Positions 11,696 to 61,186 of a stretch of 64,000 bases of DNA are shown piece after piece. The position numbers were made by a program, and so were the translations under genes. The notes below the pieces were generated by a model. It was not told the origin of the DNA and searched no databases. It worked only from the letters and a program-made list of their open reading frames with translations. The stretch comes from Promethearchaeota archaeon. Lineage in GTDB: Archaea; Asgardarchaeota; Lokiarchaeia; Sigyniarchaeales; SOKP01. The stretch covers positions 160,001-224,000 of the forward strand of contig JBHLOC010000001.1 of assembly GCA_048940925.1 (NCBI GenBank), given 5' to 3'. Numbering within the stretch: position 1 is the first letter of the stretch; each line of letters begins with the position of its first letter.

Positions 11696-11797
11696 CGGGC
11701 TATGAGGGATTTGAACCCCCGACCTGCCGGTATCCGCTACGAATTTTGTAATAGTCGCTTAAGAGCCGGTTGCGCTACCTGCCTGCGCCAATAGCCC
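11696..11797 (-). tRNA. tRNA-Lys(CTT) with 28-nt intron at 37/38 (11732-11759)
   Basis: Acceptor GGGCTAT/ATAGCCC, D arm GCGC, anticodon loop CT-CTT-A then intron, T arm GGGGG-TTCAAAT-CCCTC. Confidence 0.88.
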
Positions 11798-11835: not shown

Positions 11836-11945
11836 CGCAGACGGAGGGACTCGAACCCCCGAGCGCTTATGCGCACCGGCTCTCAATGTTATGATCTTCA
11901 TTATAGCACTCAAGGCCGGCGTCTTACCAACTAGGCTACGTCTGC
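11836..11945 (-). tRNA. tRNA-Ser(TGA) with 27-nt anticodon-loop intron (nominally 11882-11908)
   Basis: Acceptor GCAGACG/CGTCTGC, CCGGC/GCCGG anticodon stem, long variable arm, G discriminator. Confidence 0.88.
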
Positions 11946-21947: not shown

Positions 21948-23613
21948 TCAATGATTTAGAGTTTTAGAGACATATACACCATCTATTTTATATCCCATTT
22001 CATAGAACCAATCTCTTGCTCCAATACCACTTATTACTACTAGTTTTTTTGCTCCAAATTCTTCAAATGAGGTTTTTTCAGCATTTTCCATTAATAATTT
22101 TCCATATCCTCTATGTTGTATTTGAATAAGTCGCTTGGGTTTCAAGTCTTTTGGAACCATTTCTCCAACTACCTTGATTTCCCTTACGATTAATGTTTTT
22201 CCATCATTTATTTCAGGTCTGTGGGCAAATTCAGAAGGCTTTCTTAAGCGTAAATATCCAATTAAATAATTTTCGATTTTATTCTCATAGGATAAGAATA
22301 TTTCTTTTCCCTGAGAAGCATCATAATCAAAACGATATAGTTTTATTTTATCAAAGGATTTCTCATCAATAAGTTCCTCTTTCTTACTAATCCCATATTC
22401 TCTACATCTAATACATTTGCAAGTTTCATCCCAACTTTTTAGTCTCTCTTGGACTAACTGTCTTAAATTGCTATTTTTACAACCTGCTTTGATTAATGTC
22501 GCAGGTATATCTCTCATTATTCTTTGAATTCTCACATAGGATGGAAGGTTTTTTTTAGCCATTGCAATTAATTCAATTAAGTCTTCATCCGAGTATGGTA
22601 AGTAATTTCCATTTTTCCACCAATTATGCAATTCAGTACCATCTATCACGAGAGTAGGATAAATTTTTAACATATCAGGTCGATAATCTGGATTAGAAAA
22701 TAAGCTATCAAATAATTTTAAATCTTTTTGAATAGTTGAACCGGGTAAATTTGGCATTACATGTGCATTGATTTTTAATCCTGCATCTTTAGCAATCCTT
22801 ATCGATTCAATGCTATCAGCAGTTGTATGCCCTCTTTTCACTAGATCATAGATTTCATTATAGACTGTTTGAATACCAATTTCGACTCGCGTTGTTCCAA
22901 AATTTAACATATTATCTACATGTGTCTCTTTACAATAATCTGGTCTTGTCTCAACGGTAATACCTATAACCCTTCTTTTAGATTTTTCTGCTAATAGCTT
23001 AGCTTCTTCCAAACTGCCTGTTTTTTGTTTTATTATTCCCTCTAATGCCCCTTTAACGAAATGTGTTTGATAATCTGGATCAGTTGATAAGAAAGTCCCA
23101 CCCATTATAATAAGTTCAATCTTTTATGGTGGCAAACAATTAAGCGTATACCATGTCCACTTTATGCCCAATGGCTTCTAAATCTTTTATTCGAGATTGA
23201 ACTTGCTTATAAGGATCATAATTGTTATGGATTGATCTCATCGCCGCTGGTTCTCTTCCTGTATATGATTGGGCAACTTTTTCCCCTGGTTGGGAGTTTA
23301 CTCCAGGACAGTATATACATGTTCCGGGACAAGGAAGAGGTTTAGTCATAATTGCTATTACTGAAACTCCTGAAATTGTTCTTGTTGTTCTTCTCTTCAA
23401 AAATTTATTGATAATCTCTTTTTCTTCATTTGTTGCATGGTGTATAATACTGGCATTTTTTATAACTCGATTATAATTATACTTTTTTCCAATTTGTCCT
23501 TTAAGGTTTGTTATTTTTCTGCGAGAAGTTTTAGGATTTTCTAAAAGATACTCAATTATTTCTCTTGCTATTTTCTTTACTATACTTGAGTTTATATTAT
23601 CTGATTGTTCCAT
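21948..23613 (-). CDS. elp3: tRNA uridine(34) acetyltransferase Elp3, split by a 31-nt intron; join(23155-23613, 21948-23123), 544 aa
   Basis: Exon 1 carries CPGTCIYCPG and SYTGREPA; exon 2 carries MGGTF, ETRPD, KIYPTLV and QHRGYG; removing 23124-23154 restores IGHKVD-KIELIIMGGTF. Confidence 0.9.
23124..23154 (-). other. BHB-type (tRNA-endonuclease) intron in elp3
   Basis: Central helix GUGG/CCAU, bulges ACA and AAA, intron stem UGGUA/UGCCA; outer exon helix weak. Confidence 0.82.
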
Positions 23614-29536: not shown

Positions 29537-30235
29537 ATGACAAAAACTGAGATTAGAAATCATCCAAAATTTTCTAATGTTTTTATATCCGGCCCTCGAG
29601 AAAAATTAACACTGTATACTAAAAACCTAGATCAAGGTTTTAAGGTTTATGGTGAGAAATTAATAGAATATAAAGGAGAGGAATATAGAGAATGGGATCC
29701 ATTTAGGAGTAAACTAGCAGCTCTAATCTTAGAAAACCCTACTAGAAATTTCTTATCTATTGATTTTAATTGTTTGTATTTGGGTGCATCATCAGGGACA
29801 ACAATCTCCCACCTTTCAGATATCATACCCACAGGAATTATATATGGTGTTGAATTTTCTGAAAGAAGCATCAGACAATTAATTCAGAACACATCAAATA
29901 GAAAGAATATTATTCCAATATTAGGAGATGCTAGAAATCCTGAAAGTTATGCAAAATCAATTTTTACTAAAGTTGATTTAATTTACCAAGATGTTGCTCA
30001 ACCTAATCAAACCGAGATAGCAATTCGTAATTGTAATTATTATTTAAAAGATGGTGGAATATTAATTCTTGCTATAAAATCCCAATCTATAGATAGTATT
30101 CAAAAATCTGAACTTGTTTATGCTAAAGAACAATCTACTCTCAAAAAAGCAGATTATAATCTCATAGAAAGTGTAAATATACATAAATTTGCCGCTAATC
30201 ATATTATATTGATTGCAGAAAAAACATTCACTTAA
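29537..30235 (+). CDS. flpA: Fibrillarin-like rRNA/tRNA 2'-O-methyltransferase
   Basis: VYGE, WDPFRSKLAA, LYLGASSGTT, DVAQP. Confidence 0.96.
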   Translation: MTKTEIRNHPKFSNVFISGPREKLTLYTKNLDQGFKVYGEKLIEYKGEEYREWDPFRSKLAALILENPTRNFLSIDFNCLYLGASSGTTISHLSDIIPTGIIYGVEFSERSIRQLIQNTSNRKNIIPILGDARNPESYAKSIFTKVDLIYQDVAQPNQTEIAIRNCNYYLKDGGILILAIKSQSIDSIQKSELVYAKEQSTLKKADYNLIESVNIHKFAANHIILIAEKTFT

Positions 30236-30927
30236 AAGAATTCAGTTATTTTTCTATTTGCCACCTCTTCATTTAATATATTTTTAGTTGTATCCCATGA
30301 TTTCCTTGCAATTTGTGGTGCTTTTTTATGTTTTTTTACCCATACTCGAAGAAATTCTATAGTTGTTACATCAGAGGGATATCCCGATCCAAATTCTCCA
30401 TACTTTTTTTTTAATTCGTCTATTGAGGTGTCTCTTTTATTTTTTGCAATTATAGATCCAGCTGAAACTATTGGATAAATATCATCAGCTTTATGTTTCG
30501 AAATTATTCTTTTAGGTTTGTAATTTAGTAATTTTTTGATTGACCGACCAAATCTTTCTTCATTTACATCAGCAGCATCAACATATATGATGTCTGGTTT
30601 TAAAATATTAATAATTTCAGCCATTTTTAATTCTTCAAGTCGATTCATCGTAATATTCTTTTCCTTTCTCTGATCTATCTCTTCAGGATCTACTATGATA
30701 ATTTTATAGGAATAACAATTGTTTTTGATAAGTTTAGATAATTGACTCCTCCTTTTGGTTGATAATTTTTTTGAATCTTTAACCCCAATTTCAGATAAAA
30801 ATTCTAATTTATGATTAGTAAAACAGACGCCACAAATAACCATAGGACCTAAGACAGAGCCTTTTAACATATAATTCGATCTGAATTATTTTCTGCCAGC
30901 CTCGTCTATACCACAAATTACTTCCAA
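30232..30927 (-). CDS. rnhB: Ribonuclease HII, split by a 30-nt intron; join(30893-30927, 30232-30862), 221 aa
   Basis: Exon 1 (TTG) reads EVICGIDEAGR; exon 2 reads GSVLGPMV..KDSKKL..KAD..GSGYPSD; the insert carries an in-frame TAA. Confidence 0.92.
30863..30892 (-). other. BHB-type intron in rnhB
   Basis: Helix UGGC/GUUA, bulges AGA and AAA, intron stem AUAAUUC/GAAUUAU, exon stem AGAC-GAG/CUC-U-GUCU. Confidence 0.88.
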
Positions 30928-30934
30928 CTTTTCA

Positions 30935-31933
30935 TCAAGATTCTTGTATGAGTTCAATGAATTCTTCCTCATCATCAATTTTTTCTAAATTCTTTATTTT
31001 AACAATATGTATATCATCTTTTTTTATTAAGGCTGGAATTTTTACATGGTTATTGACAATAAATAGAGCTGTTTTATGGAATAACTCATTAAACATCTTT
31101 AAACATCGAAAATTCATTTGATTTATATTTTTCTGCTCCTCAGAGATAGCTGAAAACAGAGGATAAAAGCCCTCTTCAGTTTTTTCAATCGAAGAAAACA
31201 ATGATAATTTAAAGGGTATTGAGCCTTTCTTATACCAATATGCGGACAATCCTATATCGTCTATTATTGAATTTACACGTGATTCAAAATCACTTAACTC
31301 TTTTTCTTCTTGATTTTCAATATCTCTTTGATGAGAATTAATTTTCCATTTAAAGATATTAATCTTTTTGAAAATTTCATTATTATCTAGTATATTTAAT
31401 ATTTTTATGGCAATTTGATCTGAGGGTCGCATACTTTCGTTTTCATAAGCACTTATTGTCCTCTTAGTAACGCCTAGTTTTTCAGATAATTCCTTTCTTG
31501 TTATTAATTGTTTTTCTCTTATTGTTTTCATCAATATACCGTCTAAAAAGACTACACCGCCACCTCTTCTTGCTAAAATATAGGGGTATATATTTTTATT
31601 TAGAATTTTCTCAAAAGTATTTAATGTTATAAAAGGCAAACCTTCTCTTACATATATTGTATTATCCTCTAAGTTTTGGTATCGATTCTTGATGCCAATC
31701 AATAATGGTTTTGATTTTAATATAAATGATAATTGTTTAATATCTCGGATGAGGTCAGGATTTAAATTATCTATATTAGGAAAGACTTTAAGGCTAAAAA
31801 CTTGATCATTCTTTTTTACTAATAAATCAAAACAAAATTTTGTCTTTTTGCTAGCAAAATTTCCTATATTTAAGGTTTCAAAGTTCGCCTTCTTCAGTAA
31901 ATCATCAATCTTCTCTATGACTGTACTTATCAT
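30935..31933 (-). CDS. Archaeal XRE-type HTH transcriptional regulator
   Basis: RRGGGVVFLDG, ELSEKLGVTKRTISAYEN. Confidence 0.8.
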   Translation of the reverse strand: MISTVIEKIDDLLKKANFETLNIGNFASKKTKFCFDLLVKKNDQVFSLKVFPNIDNLNPDLIRDIKQLSFILKSKPLLIGIKNRYQNLEDNTIYVREGLPFITLNTFEKILNKNIYPYILARRGGGVVFLDGILMKTIREKQLITRKELSEKLGVTKRTISAYENESMRPSDQIAIKILNILDNNEIFKKINIFKWKINSHQRDIENQEEKELSDFESRVNSIIDDIGLSAYWYKKGSIPFKLSLFSSIEKTEEGFYPLFSAISEEQKNINQMNFRCLKMFNELFHKTALFIVNNHVKIPALIKKDDIHIVKIKNLEKIDDEEEFIELIQES

Positions 31934-59713: not shown

Positions 59714-61186
59714 ATGAATGTTATTAAAATTGATGAAAATATATACGAGATTCCCCCAAAAGCTTTGATGACACGGATTCACGGCAACATTGAAAAATTT
59801 CAAATGAGAGTACCAGTAAGGATTTATGCTAATGACTATATTTTAGAAAAAATTAAGTTAGATCGTACTCTTGATCAAATTTGTAATGTTGCTTGTTTAG
59901 AAGGAATAAAAAAACATGCTATTGCATTATCAGATGCACATCAAGGGTATGGTTTTTGTATTGGAGGTGTTTGTGGTACAGAGGCAGGATCTGGTATGAT
60001 ATCACCTGGAGGTGTAGGATATGATATTAATTGTGGAGTTCGCCTTTTACGTACTAGTTTAATGTTTAAAGATATTAAAAATAACCTTCCAACCTTGATT
60101 AATACGATTTTTAAGAATATCCCTTCAGGTTTAGGATCTAAAGGTAAATTAAATATAAGCTATTCAGATTTAGATAAAGTTTTAAACGCGGGAGTTAACT
60201 GGGCATTAGATAATGACTATGCAATCGAAGAAGATATTAAATTTTTAGAAGAAAATGGATGTTTGAAAGATGCAGATGCTAGTTTAGTCTCCCAAAAAGC
60301 AAAACAACGCGCTATTAAACAATTAGGTTCCTTAGGAAGTGGGAATCATTTCATTGAAATTCAAAAAGTAGATAAGATTTATAATAATAATGTTGCCAAA
60401 AAGCTAGGAATCCTTGAGAACAATCAGATAACATTAATGGTTCATACAGGGAGTAGAGCTCTAGGTCATCAAGTTTGTACTGATAGTTTACGGAATATTG
60501 AGCAAGCAATGAAAAAGTATAAGATTAAAGTTCCAGATAGAGAACTAGCTTGTGTTCCAGCAGATACACCTGAGGCTCAGAGCTATTTAAAACAAATGGC
60601 TTGTGCTGCCAATTTTGGTTTTACTAATCGTCAGTTGATAACTCATTGGATAAGAGAATCATTTCAACGAATATTTAGTAATGATATTGATGCTTTAGGA
60701 CTTCATTTAATATATGGTGTTTGCCATAATATTTTAAAAATAGAGGAACACGAAATTGATGGCCAAAAGATGAAATTAAACATTCATCGTAAGGGTGCAA
60801 CTAGAGCTTTTCCGCCAGGTCATCCAGTACTACCCCCAGATTATAAAGAGATTGGTCAACCTGCTCTGATTCCTGGAACAATGGGCTCAGCCTCTTATTT
60901 ATGTGTAGGAAAACCAAAAGCAATGGATTTATCCTTTGGATCTACTGCGCATGGATCTGGTCGTTTAATGTCTAGAACAAAAGCAACTAAAAGATATTGG
61001 GGAGCTAAAGTAAAGGAAGATTTAGGAAATAAAGGCATTTTAATTAAAAGCGCATCAATGAAAGTTTTGGCCGAAGAGAGTCCTGGAGCTTATAAAGATA
61101 TTGATCAGGTAGTTCAGGTTAGTCATGATCTTGGAATTGTTGAAAAAATAGTAAAATTAGTACCTATCGGAGTTGTGAAAGGATAG
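59714..61186 (+). CDS. rtcB: tRNA-splicing ligase RtcB
   Basis: DAHQGYG, GYDINCGVR, GSGNHF, HTGSR, HN, HRKGATR, STAHGSGR. Confidence 0.97.
   Translation: MNVIKIDENIYEIPPKALMTRIHGNIEKFQMRVPVRIYANDYILEKIKLDRTLDQICNVACLEGIKKHAIALSDAHQGYGFCIGGVCGTEAGSGMISPGGVGYDINCGVRLLRTSLMFKDIKNNLPTLINTIFKNIPSGLGSKGKLNISYSDLDKVLNAGVNWALDNDYAIEEDIKFLEENGCLKDADASLVSQKAKQRAIKQLGSLGSGNHFIEIQKVDKIYNNNVAKKLGILENNQITLMVHTGSRALGHQVCTDSLRNIEQAMKKYKIKVPDRELACVPADTPEAQSYLKQMACAANFGFTNRQLITHWIRESFQRIFSNDIDALGLHLIYGVCHNILKIEEHEIDGQKMKLNIHRKGATRAFPPGHPVLPPDYKEIGQPALIPGTMGSASYLCVGKPKAMDLSFGSTAHGSGRLMSRTKATKRYWGAKVKEDLGNKGILIKSASMKVLAEESPGAYKDIDQVVQVSHDLGIVEKIVKLVPIGVVKG

What the first reader, a model, noticed from the sequence alone, without database searches (positions are those of the whole stretch)
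30863..30892. BHB intron splitting the catalytic DEAGRG motif of RNase HII
The minus-strand sequence is GAC GAG GCT GGC AG[AAAATAATTCAGATCGAATTATATGTTAAA]A GGC TCT GTC. The 30-nt insert has an in-frame TAA and folds as a full BHB: exon stem, helix UGGC/GUUA, bulges AGA and AAA, and a 7-bp intron hairpin. Cutting after bulge position 2 regenerates AGA and yields GIDEAGRGSVLGP. Unspliced RNA could give only a short peptide or an ATG-initiated protein lacking the catalytic D/E residues.
Basis: partly seen in the sequence, partly recalled or inferred. Interest (0 to 1): 0.92.

Follow-up and report, generated by a model that had tools for sequence, protein, structure and literature searches.

The report
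tRNA-type mini-intron splitting Asgard RNase HII
The only RNase HII gene of this Loki-type Asgard archaeon is broken inside its active-site codons by a 30-base insert shaped like a tRNA intron. Comparison with about 125 related genomes shows that the insert must be cut out of the messenger RNA, a kind of splicing that the papers I could search document for only one other archaeal protein gene (cbf5).

Summary
On the minus strand, 30863-30892 is a 30-nt insert with an in-frame TAA, between the 2nd and 3rd base of the Arg codon of GIDEAG-R-G, in the genome's only rnhB.

The same-site insert is in 74 of the 115 genomes of its family where the site could be read. It is absent from sister families. 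Four copies are 28, 29 or 31 nt long, so they shift the frame unless removed. All 74 carry a stop.

After removal, every gene gives an intact 215-224 aa RNase HII with invariant catalytic D, E, D, D. Median dN/dS is 0.16, against 0.20 for intronless genes. The bulge-helix-bulge (BHB) fold is backed by compensatory changes: all 9 hairpin pairs, 2 of 4 central-helix pairs, 0 of 500 shuffles as good.

The genome has two EndA paralogues and RtcB. No RNA data could be obtained, so splicing is inferred, not seen.

Extras:
- The intron was lost or swapped at least 7 times.
- Thirteen Thermoplasmatales genomes have a 35-47 nt intron at the identical site. Six of them have a LAGLIDADG-like gene next to it.
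- This genome's aEF-2, methylmalonyl-CoA mutase, a Ras-like GTPase and elp3 are split in the same way.

This scan has already reported the rnhB intron on other DNA (27 notes, at least 24 genomes).

The parts
30893..30927 (-). rnhB exon 1 (MEVICGIDEAG plus the first two bases, AG, of the Arg codon). The TTG start at 30927 is inferred.
   Evidence: Exon 2 aligns to T. kodakarensis RNase HII (1io2) from residue 12, so about 11 residues must come from exon 1. PF01351 spans the insert at model positions 1-199. The start codon is inferred from its position 7 nt after the upstream gene's stop and from relatives that have ATA or ATG at the same place.
30863..30892 (-). 30-nt BHB-type intron with an in-frame TAA
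30895..30898 (-). Central helix H, 5' strand (exon bases UGGC: third base of the Ala codon plus the Gly codon)
   Evidence: Alignment columns 17-20 pair with 48-51 in 93% of cells. Columns 17/51 and 20/48 show changes on both sides: UA, AU, CG and UG, GC, CG, UA.
30865..30868 (-). Central helix H, 3' strand (intron bases GUUA)
30892..30894 (-). 5' bulge A-G|a; the predicted cut lies between 30893 and 30892
   Evidence: The 5' bulge is AGA in 70, AGU in 3 and AAA in 1 of 74 copies. Only a cut after position 2 restores Arg in the AGU copies.
30862..30864 (-). 3' bulge a-a|A; the predicted cut lies between 30863 and 30862
   Evidence: The 3' bulges are AAA, ACA, AUA, GUA, AGG, AAG and ACG. The third base always completes AGA or AGG, or AAA in one copy.
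30869..30891 (-). Intron hairpin h' (9 positions with one A.A mismatch in this copy; 5-nt loop AGAUC)
   Evidence: All 9 pairs show compensatory changes among the 74 copies, with 88% of cells paired. It is present in the MFE folds.
30853..30861 (-). Exon-2 strand of the outer exon helix (GGCUCUGUC), pairing with GACGAGGC at 30899-30906
   Evidence: helices 1 and 2 (97% and 64.5% paired, with an invariant G.G mismatch). In intron-bearing alleles the flanking codons are biased towards pairing: Glu is GAG in 73/74 against 27/41, the Gly before the junction is never GGA (0/74 against 17/41), and a mean of 6.1 against 5.1 of 8 exon pairs form.
30232..30862 (-). rnhB exon 2 (the A of the Arg codon, then GSVLGPMVICGV... 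to the stop at 30232-30234)
   Evidence: PF01351 at E 7.5e-42, TIGR00729 at E 1.6e-61, PDB 1io2 and 2dfe at about E 1e-48.
59876..61183 (+). RtcB RNA ligase gene, the presumed joining enzyme acting in trans
   Evidence: PF01139 at E 8.7e-167; the only copy in the genome.
30935..31933 (-). Conserved upstream neighbour, a PRK04140-type HTH regulator. Context only; not part of the intron.
   Evidence: HTH_3 and NF003162 at E 1.3e-57, below its cut-off. It lies upstream of rnhB in both intron-bearing and intronless genomes.

Best explanation
The 30-nt insert is a true archaeal bulge-helix-bulge (BHB) intron in the rnhB pre-mRNA. The transcript folds so that the last exon-1 bases (UGGC) pair with the last intron bases before the 3' bulge (GUUA). 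A 3-nt bulge (AG|A and AA|A) sits on each strand, flanked by the 9-position intron hairpin on one side and an imperfect exon-exon helix on the other. The heteromeric splicing endonuclease EndA (two paralogues encoded) cuts after the second base of each bulge. RtcB joins the exons, recreating the AGA codon and the catalytic motif GIDEAGRG. Only spliced mRNA gives active RNase HII; unspliced mRNA ends after 13 codons. Shown here: the anatomy, its conservation and covariation, the need for removal, the intactness of the spliced gene and selection on it, and the presence of the enzyme genes. Inferred: the cleavage and ligation themselves and which enzymes perform them. The intron is old within this Promethearchaeota family. 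It has since been lost or exchanged repeatedly, at least partly by recombination that swaps the 5' end of the gene.
For: The gene is single-copy and interrupted. The insert is at the identical site in 74 of the 115 family genomes where the site could be read, including all members of the window's genus whose site could be read (43 analysed, plus a 44th whose copy is interrupted by Ns). It is absent in sister families. Lengths are 28, 29, 30 and 31 nt, and all 74 carry a stop (62 TAA, 8 TAG, 4 TGA), so the insert cannot be translated through. Covariation: 84.7% of cells pair, 11 pairs change on both sides, 0 of 500 shuffles reach the score, and slid registers give 25-45%. Synonymous exon positions (third bases of the Ala and Gly codons) covary with intron bases. 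The spliced ORF is intact at 215-224 aa in all 126 genes. Median dN/dS is 0.16, against 0.20 for intronless genes, and D3, E4, D102 and D133 are invariant. There are two EndA paralogues at 28% identity, as published for Asgard (alpha-beta)2 enzymes with broad specificity (PMC5829648). RtcB is present. Other genes of this genome are split by inserts of similar size and layout, with profile or structure matches continuous across the junction for aEF-2, MM-CoA mutase and the Ras-like GTPase.
Against: No spliced RNA has been seen, and no RNA run was listed. The exon helix next to the 3' bulge is weak (one C-G pair, then an invariant G.G mismatch). In this copy the central helix has two G.U pairs and is not in the MFE fold. 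In several relatives the MFE prefers a register shifted by one, with a 3-bp helix and a 4-nt bulge. If cut two bases into that bulge, this register would give a frameshift. So the canonical register is chosen on the protein product and on covariation, not on energy.
Confidence: 0.87

Rival explanations
1. The gene is a pseudogene and the insert is a disabling insertion with no RNA-level repair.
For: There is an in-frame stop 2 codons into the insert, and no RNA evidence.
Against: The same insert is kept in 74 species-level genomes. Both exons stay open, with dN/dS of 0.16 and invariant catalytic residues. It is the only rnhB copy. The insert itself shows compensatory changes.
Confidence: 0.02
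2. The insert is skipped by the ribosome (translational bypassing as in phage T4 gene 60) or read through by recoding.
For: A stop shortly after a possible take-off codon followed by a hairpin superficially resembles gene 60.
Against: The take-off codon (AGA) and the codon before GGN at the landing site (AAA, ACA, AUA, AAG...) do not match. Three different stops and non-3n lengths exclude read-through. Covariation supports the 4-bp helix between exon and intron and the 3-nt bulges, which bypassing does not need.
Confidence: 0.03
3. Two products are made: an exon-1 micro-peptide and an ATG-started protein lacking Asp/Glu. Either they complement each other, or the truncated protein has another role.
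For: In this window an in-frame ATG inside the insert opens a 212-aa ORF.
Against: That ATG is present in only 37 of 74 introns. Exon 1 remains strictly conserved, with invariant D3 and E4. No archaeal RNase HII split in this way is known (my own knowledge, not searched).
Confidence: 0.03
4. The insert is removed from RNA, but by a nuclease/ligase pair other than EndA and RtcB.
For: The enzymes were not tested. The exon helix is relaxed compared with a canonical hBHBh' motif.
Against: The geometry is that of a BHB: 3-nt bulges on opposite strands, a 4-bp helix, and the cut after position 2 giving the right codon in every copy. Both enzyme genes are present. The tRNA genes in the same window are longer than a standard tRNA, which suggests introns that need the same enzymes.
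Confidence: 0.04
5. Assembly or binning artefact, or an element excised at the DNA level.
For: None specific. The genomes are metagenome-assembled.
Against: The insert is found in 74 independent assemblies, including closed chromosomes (CP070805.1, CP070831.1), with lineage-specific sequence variation that tracks the gene tree.
Confidence: 0.01

Closest known systems
BHB intron in the cbf5 (pseudouridine synthase) pre-mRNA of Crenarchaeota (Watanabe 2002; Yoshinari 2006; Yokobori 2009, PMC2738675)
   Same: A short BHB intron inside a coding sequence, in organisms with a hetero-oligomeric splicing endonuclease. An ancestral gain is followed by lineage-specific losses. Gene callers mis-annotate the gene.
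   Different: A different gene (rnhB) and a different phylum (Promethearchaeota, Asgard). The intron sits inside a catalytic motif, 35 nt from the start codon. It is one of several split genes in the same genome. Splicing has been shown experimentally for cbf5 but not here.
BHB intron in the 5' UTR of HVO_1309 mRNA, Haloferax volcanii (PMC7714728)
   Same: An mRNA substrate of the tRNA splicing endonuclease.
   Different: It lies in the untranslated leader, so it does not interrupt a reading frame. Its cleavage was shown in vivo and in vitro.
Archaeal tRNA BHB introns, abundant in Asgard archaea (preprint 10.64898/2026.10.13.758758; PMC5829648)
   Same: The same motif, the same predicted cut positions, the same enzymes, and a similar size.
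   Different: The host RNA is a messenger. [quoted passage not shown] The preprint does not mention mRNA introns.
Collaborative homing of an endonuclease-less intron with a free-standing homing endonuclease gene (cyanophage psbA / F-CphI; from my own knowledge, not read here)
   Same: In Thermoplasmatales the same-site rnhB intron lies next to a LAGLIDADG-like gene in 6 of 13 carriers and in none of about 25 non-carriers. A recombination breakpoint sits at the intron.
   Different: The intron is a BHB mini-intron, not a group I intron. In the Promethearchaeota family of this window no such gene is adjacent. No nuclease activity has been tested.
Unconventional HAC1/XBP1 mRNA splicing in eukaryotes (IRE1 plus tRNA ligase/RtcB; PMC13149111 lists it)
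   Same: A very short intron (26 nt in XBP1, from my own knowledge) is removed from an mRNA without a spliceosome and the exons are joined by the tRNA ligase. Removal changes the reading frame.
   Different: The nuclease (IRE1) and the recognition structure differ. The eukaryotic system is regulated by stress. No homology is implied.

Membership tests
Archaeal bulge-helix-bulge (BHB) intron | [quoted passage not shown] | tested here: met
   UGGC/GUUA with bulges AGA and AAA. The helix pairs in 93% of cells across 74 copies, with changes on both sides at 2 of 4 pairs. Bulge lengths are constant.
Archaeal bulge-helix-bulge (BHB) intron | Flanking helices on both sides (h from the exons, h' from the intron) | tested here: inconclusive
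   h' is strong: 9 positions, all covarying. The exon helix h has one C-G pair, then an invariant G.G mismatch, then 3-6 further pairs. This is a relaxed form. Published work says only (alpha-beta)2 and epsilon2 enzymes accept relaxed motifs (PMC5829648), and this genome has two EndA paralogues.
Archaeal bulge-helix-bulge (BHB) intron | Cuts after the second bulge nucleotide give a functional joined product | tested here: met
   In all 74 Promethearchaeota and 13 Thermoplasmatales copies this rule restores Arg (or Lys) followed by Gly and an intact 215-224 aa ORF.
Archaeal bulge-helix-bulge (BHB) intron | Cleavage by EndA and ligation by RtcB; spliced RNA and an excised or circular intron detectable | not testable with these tools
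   The genes are present. No RNA run was listed.
Ribonuclease HII (PF01351 / TIGR00729) | Profile match over the whole domain and the catalytic Asp-Glu-Asp-Asp | tested here: met
   PF01351 positions 1-199 across the insert at E 2e-43. TIGR00729 scores 208 bits against a cut-off of 123 on exon 2 alone. D3, E4, D102 and D133 are invariant in 126 genes. PDB 1io2 aligns residues 12-208 to exon 2.
Intron spread by a neighbouring homing endonuclease (collaborative homing) | An endonuclease gene adjacent to the intron-bearing allele and absent from intronless alleles | tested here: not met
   For this window and its family, the neighbours are Nop5, fibrillarin, an HTH regulator, an HTH-CBS protein and SAM synthetase. 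The regulator is adjacent with and without the intron. The feature is met only in Thermoplasmatales: 6 of 13 carriers and 0 of about 25 non-carriers, with a weak LAGLIDADG_3 match at E 4e-4 plus the motif ILRGFFAGEGNI.
Intron spread by a neighbouring homing endonuclease (collaborative homing) | Co-conversion of flanking exon sequence / recombination breakpoints at the intron | tested here: inconclusive
   This is clear in one Thermoplasmatales pair (L194/L191): 0-3 differences per 30 nt downstream of +20, unalignable upstream. In genus g16 of the window's family, the two intron-bearing alleles share a 5' module that conflicts with the exon-2 tree. The direction of exchange is unknown.

The most novel reading that the evidence does not exclude
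The Arg codon of the DEAGRG motif of rnhB is a recurrent landing site for BHB mini-introns in unrelated archaeal phyla. I verified it in Promethearchaeota and Thermoplasmatota; earlier scan notes, which I did not check, add DPANN, Thaumarchaeota and Bathyarchaeia. Under this reading the introns spread sideways as a DNA cassette (5' exon plus intron, sometimes with a free-standing LAGLIDADG-type endonuclease whose target the intron disrupts). The endonuclease is later lost, leaving orphan introns such as the one in this window. Together with the split aEF-2, MM-CoA mutase, Ras-like GTPase and elp3 genes, this would mean that Loki-type Asgard archaea routinely splice messenger RNAs with the tRNA machinery, and that these introns are mobile.
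Probability: 0.4. Interest if true: 0.85.

Novelty: new member of a known kind. Interest (0 to 1): 0.68.

Why it matters
Papers I could search document BHB introns inside archaeal coding sequences for one gene only, cbf5 in Crenarchaeota. PMC7714728 says so explicitly. A 2026 census of Asgard tRNA introns does not mention mRNA.

Here a housekeeping enzyme of an Asgard archaeon can be made only after its mRNA is spliced by the tRNA machinery. The same genome has similar splits in aEF-2, a Ras-like GTPase, a mutase and elp3. This matters in three ways:

- **Annotation.** Standard gene callers will report rnhB as truncated or as a pseudogene. The ORF list shows only a 212-aa fragment that lacks the catalytic Asp and Glu.
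- **Biology of the closest prokaryotic relatives of eukaryotes.** In an organism with coupled transcription and translation, mRNA splicing forces an ordering between RNA processing and translation.
- **Intron evolution.** The data set gives a dated gain, at least 7 losses or swaps, exon codons shaped by the splicing motif, and an identical intron position in two phyla. That makes the question of how spliceosome-independent introns arise and move testable.

Tried and rejected
- **RNA evidence.** The look-up of sequencing runs (kind rna) on window 30100-31100 listed no RNA holder. Read laying could therefore not be used. This says nothing either way about expression.
- **Literature.** Searches for BHB introns in Asgard or Lokiarchaeota protein genes found none.
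- **Genome-wide BHB and ORF-bridging scan.** The scan is crude. It returned 1227 raw hits, against 264 on reversed sequence, which is an unfair control. It missed rnhB itself because exon 1 is shorter than the 50 codons required, and it missed elp3. Only the candidates checked by profile or structure matches are reported. It gives no count of introns per genome.
- **Homing-endonuclease lead from earlier notes.** This was rejected for this lineage. The conserved upstream gene is a PRK04140-type HTH regulator that is present with and without the intron. There is no endonuclease family within about 4 kb. The extra Cys-rich ORF of genus g17 has no Pfam match.
- **Transfer of the whole gene between Thermoplasmatota and Promethearchaeota.** This was rejected as the cause of the shared intron site. 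The two phyla form separate clades in the RNase HII tree.
- **MFE folding as proof of the BHB.** It is not decisive. Weak G.U helices and a self-complementary GGCC in the exons give alternative registers.
- **First fold call.** It failed on a mistyped reference and was repeated.

Full report
**1. The observation**

Read on the minus strand, the window has ...TGT GGT ATA GAC GAG GCT GGC AG, then aaaataattcagatcgaattatatgttaaa, then A GGC TCT GTC TTA GGT CCT ATG... The lower-case stretch is 30892 down to 30863, exactly the reported coordinates.

In the upstream frame it reads AGA AAA TAA. The ORF list therefore shows a stub ending ...EVICGIDEAGRK*, plus a separate 212-aa ORF that starts at an ATG inside the insert (MLKGSVLGPMVICGV...). 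Deleting the 30 nt gives GIDEAGRGSVLGP.

Pfam RNase_HII matches across the insert at model positions 1-199 (E 2e-43, one TAA inside), and this is the only match in the 4.8-Mb genome. Exon 2 alone passes TIGR00729 (208 bits, cut-off 123). It aligns to residues 12-208 of Thermococcus kodakarensis RNase HII, PDB 1io2. The missing 11 residues, including the catalytic Asp and Glu, are those of exon 1.

**2. Who carries it**

Relatives found in named records are Promethearchaeota (Loki-type Asgard) MAGs. I read the site in 126 genomes of the same order.

- The insert is at the identical nucleotide in 74 of the 115 genomes of the window's family where the site could be read.
- It is in all members of the window's genus whose site could be read: 43 analysed, plus a 44th whose copy is interrupted by Ns.
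- In other genera the counts are 14 of 38, 4 of 7, 4 of 4, 2 of 7, 5 of 5, 1 of 2 and 1 of 1.
- Five small genera of the family lack it, and so do all 11 genomes of the sister families.

**3. Why it must be removed**

- Seventy copies are 30 nt long. Two are 29 nt, one is 28 nt and one is 31 nt. In those four, exon 2 lies in a different frame from exon 1.
- All 74 have a stop inside the insert in the exon-1 frame: 62 TAA, 8 TAG and 4 TGA. Read-through and an altered genetic code are therefore excluded.
- After removal, every one of the 126 genes gives an uninterrupted product of 215-224 aa, counted from the Gly of GIDEAG.
- Median pairwise dN/dS is 0.16 for intron-bearing genes and 0.20 for intronless ones.
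- Asp3, Glu4, Asp102 and Asp133 (numbered from that Gly) are invariant. They correspond to the catalytic tetrad of archaeal RNase HII.

The gene is therefore functional in carriers, and exon 1 is needed.

**4. The structure**

I aligned the 74 inserts with 22 nt of each exon (A1) and tested the canonical BHB register.

- The central helix (exon UGGC with intron GUUA in this window) pairs in 93% of cells.
- Its two outer pairs change on both sides: U-A, A-U and C-G at one; U-G, G-C, C-G and U-A at the other.
- These exon positions are the synonymous third bases of the Ala and Gly codons. Silent sites of the gene therefore co-vary with the intron.
- All nine pairs of the intron hairpin show compensatory changes.
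- Overall 84.7% of cells pair, against 25-45% when the 3' partners are slid by 1-3 columns. None of 500 shuffles reaches the observed covariation.

The sequences are related, so these counts are not probabilities. However, the divergent genera have almost entirely different hairpin sequences that still pair. One example is uugaaaaagu...gcuuuuuug, against aauauaauuc...gaauuauau in the window's genus.

The bulges are AGA (70), AGU (3) or AAA (1) at the 5' site and ANA or ANG at the 3' site. In the three AGU copies, only a cut after bulge position 2 recreates the invariant Arg. This fixes the cut sites at the canonical positions.

The weak point is the exon helix. One C-G pair sits next to the 3' bulge, followed by an invariant G.G mismatch and then further pairs. 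In Pro-type alleles (GGCC...GGCC) the MFE prefers a register shifted by one. If cut two bases into its 4-nt bulge, that register would give a frameshift. I therefore call the motif a relaxed BHB.

Intron-bearing alleles show codon choices that favour the motif. Glu is GAG in 73 of 74 against 27 of 41, and the Gly before the junction is never GGA (0 of 74 against 17 of 41). Relatedness inflates these contrasts.

**5. The machinery**

The genome encodes two EndA paralogues of about 200 aa. Each has the N-terminal and catalytic domains, and they are 28% identical to each other. This fits the (alpha-beta)2 enzyme with the broad-specificity loop reported for Asgard archaea (PMC5829648). It also fits the link between pre-mRNA splicing and hetero-oligomeric endonucleases cited there (Yoshinari 2006).

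There is a single RtcB gene, and it lies in this window (59876-61183). Two tRNA genes in the window are 102 and 110 nt long, longer than a standard tRNA and missed by ARAGORN. That suggests they contain introns, in which case the enzymes are needed anyway; I did not delimit the introns.

**6. History**

I built a DNA tree of the spliced genes, leaving out the columns next to the intron. It needs 12 changes of intron state, and at least 7 are forced by well-supported branches. Intronless genes nest inside intron-bearing groups, and the outgroups lack the intron.

Introns of distant genera share the loop pattern C-A-N-N-U-C-G. This suggests one origin in the family, followed by repeated loss or replacement.

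In genus g16 the two intron-bearing alleles sit in different, strongly supported exon-2 clades. Yet they share a 5' module: their own ATG, a spacer of about 55 nt and exon 1 MTDLI(I/V)CG. Their intronless sisters lack this module. The polymorphism therefore goes with a recombinational swap of the gene's 5' end. I cannot tell in which direction.

**7. The same site in another phylum**

I found this unprompted. Five Thermoplasmatota loci returned carry inserts at the same AG|A position. A survey of that order found 13 carriers among 102 genomes with rnhB.

- Lengths are 35-47 nt.
- The central helix is GGGU/GCCY, the bulges are AG|a and NN|A, and the hairpins are long and variable.
- The spliced ORF is 215 aa in every case.
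- These genomes have the single-chain two-domain EndA.
- RNase HII proteins of the two phyla form separate clades, so the whole gene was not exchanged.

One carrier and its nearest non-carrier differ by 0-3 bases per 30 nt from 20 nt downstream of the site onwards. Upstream of that point they are unalignable.

Following a lead from earlier notes of this scan, I looked upstream. Six of the 13 carriers, and none of about 25 non-carriers, have an ORF pair with the motif ILRGFFAGEGNI and a weak LAGLIDADG_3 match (E 4e-4, below the cut-off). This resembles collaborative homing of an intron with a free-standing endonuclease.

In the Promethearchaeota family the lead fails. The gene upstream of rnhB is a PRK04140-type HTH regulator that is present with and without the intron. 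No endonuclease family lies within about 4 kb.

**8. Not alone in this genome**

A crude scan for BHB-like inserts that bridge two open frames is neither sensitive nor specific. However, candidates I checked are real splits.

| Gene | Place in G000 | Insert | Match before and after the junction |
|---|---|---|---|
| aEF-2 | C32, 27895-27924, minus | 30 nt | PDB 9ou7: residues 18-62, then 63-257 |
| Methylmalonyl-CoA mutase | C71, 54629-54659 | 31 nt | Pfam positions 2-54, then 58-252 |
| Ras-like GTPase | C78, 59767-59796 | 30 nt, right after DxxGQ | Ras positions 1-58, then 60-157 |
| AIRS-family protein | C30, 66095-66124 | 30 nt | Weaker case |

The elp3 insert noted earlier in this window (23124-23154) has ELP3_N before it and radical-SAM domains after it. 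By eye, the aEF-2 and mutase inserts have the same layout as the rnhB intron (one bulge base, a 9-bp hairpin with a 5- or 6-nt loop, 4 helix bases, 2 bulge bases), and the aEF-2 and Ras loops end in UC.

**9. Comparison and verdict**

Mechanistically this is the cbf5 situation (PMC2738675): a BHB intron in a coding sequence, an old gain and lineage-specific losses. It is a new gene in a new phylum. It sits inside a catalytic motif 35 nt from the start codon, in an organism with several such genes. PMC7714728 states that cbf5 is the only reported coding example.

The scan itself has reported the rnhB intron repeatedly on other DNA (27 notes in at least 24 genomes). Within this project it is not a first sighting.

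I file it as a new member of a known kind. My confidence that it is a spliced BHB intron is about 0.87. The missing piece is any RNA or enzyme evidence.

Noticed in passing
G000:C32:27895-27924 (minus); locus L135 1896-1925: The aEF-2 gene of this genome is split by a 30-nt BHB-like insert with a stop after 2 codons. Exon 1 aligns to residues 18-62 and exon 2 to residues 63-257 of a solved EF-2 (9ou7). An essential translation factor would need mRNA splicing. I did not check whether a second EF-2 copy exists.
   Followed up: partly
G000:C71:54629-54659 (+), C78:59767-59796 (-), C30:66095-66124 (+): Methylmalonyl-CoA mutase (31 nt), a Ras-like small GTPase (30 nt, directly after the DxxGQ motif) and an AIRS-family protein (30 nt, weaker) are split by similar inserts. 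For the first two, the Pfam model coordinates continue across the junction.
   Followed up: partly
window 23124-23154 (minus): The elp3 insert noted by earlier readers has ELP3_N in the ORF before it and Radical_SAM (from model position 73) plus Radical_SAM_C in the ORF after it. This is consistent with a second mRNA intron 8 kb from rnhB.
   Followed up: partly
L194, L197, L204, L209, L214, L220-L227 (Thermoplasmatales MAGs): A 35-47 nt BHB intron sits at the identical AG|A site of rnhB in 13 of 102 genomes of one Thermoplasmatota order. Six carriers have a LAGLIDADG-like ORF pair directly upstream (L229 2606-3526), and no non-carrier does. The L194/L191 pair shows a recombination breakpoint about 20 nt downstream of the site.
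   Followed up: partly
L039, L049 against L075, L077 (genus g16); The intron-bearing alleles share a distinct 5' module (a spacer of about 55 nt with AT-rich promoter-like sequence, their own ATG, exon 1 MTDLI.CG). This conflicts with the exon-2 phylogeny. It is evidence that the 5' end of rnhB was exchanged by recombination together with the intron.
   Followed up: partly
L235 2200-2700, L238 113-619 (-), L241 2163-2690, L239 2207-2650, L236 129-584 (-); alignment A2: In genus g17, where all members carry the intron, a conserved Cys-rich ORF of about 145 aa with no Pfam match is inserted between the HTH regulator and rnhB. Its function is unknown, and it has no recognisable nuclease motif.
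   Followed up: partly
window 11696-11797 and 11836-11945 (minus): Two tRNA genes of 102 and 110 nt were found by Rfam but missed by ARAGORN. They are presumably interrupted by introns.
   Followed up: no
window 30878-30882 and the homologous loops: The 5-nt hairpin loop nearly always ends in UC before the closing G (AGAUC, AAUUC, ACUUC...). The aEF-2 (UUUUC) and Ras (CUCUC) inserts do the same. Loops are not thought to matter for EndA, so this may reflect common descent of these introns or an unknown requirement.
   Followed up: no
window 30925-30937: rnhB has no in-frame ATG or GTG near its start. The likely start is TTG at 30927, 7 nt after the stop of the upstream regulator gene.
   Followed up: no
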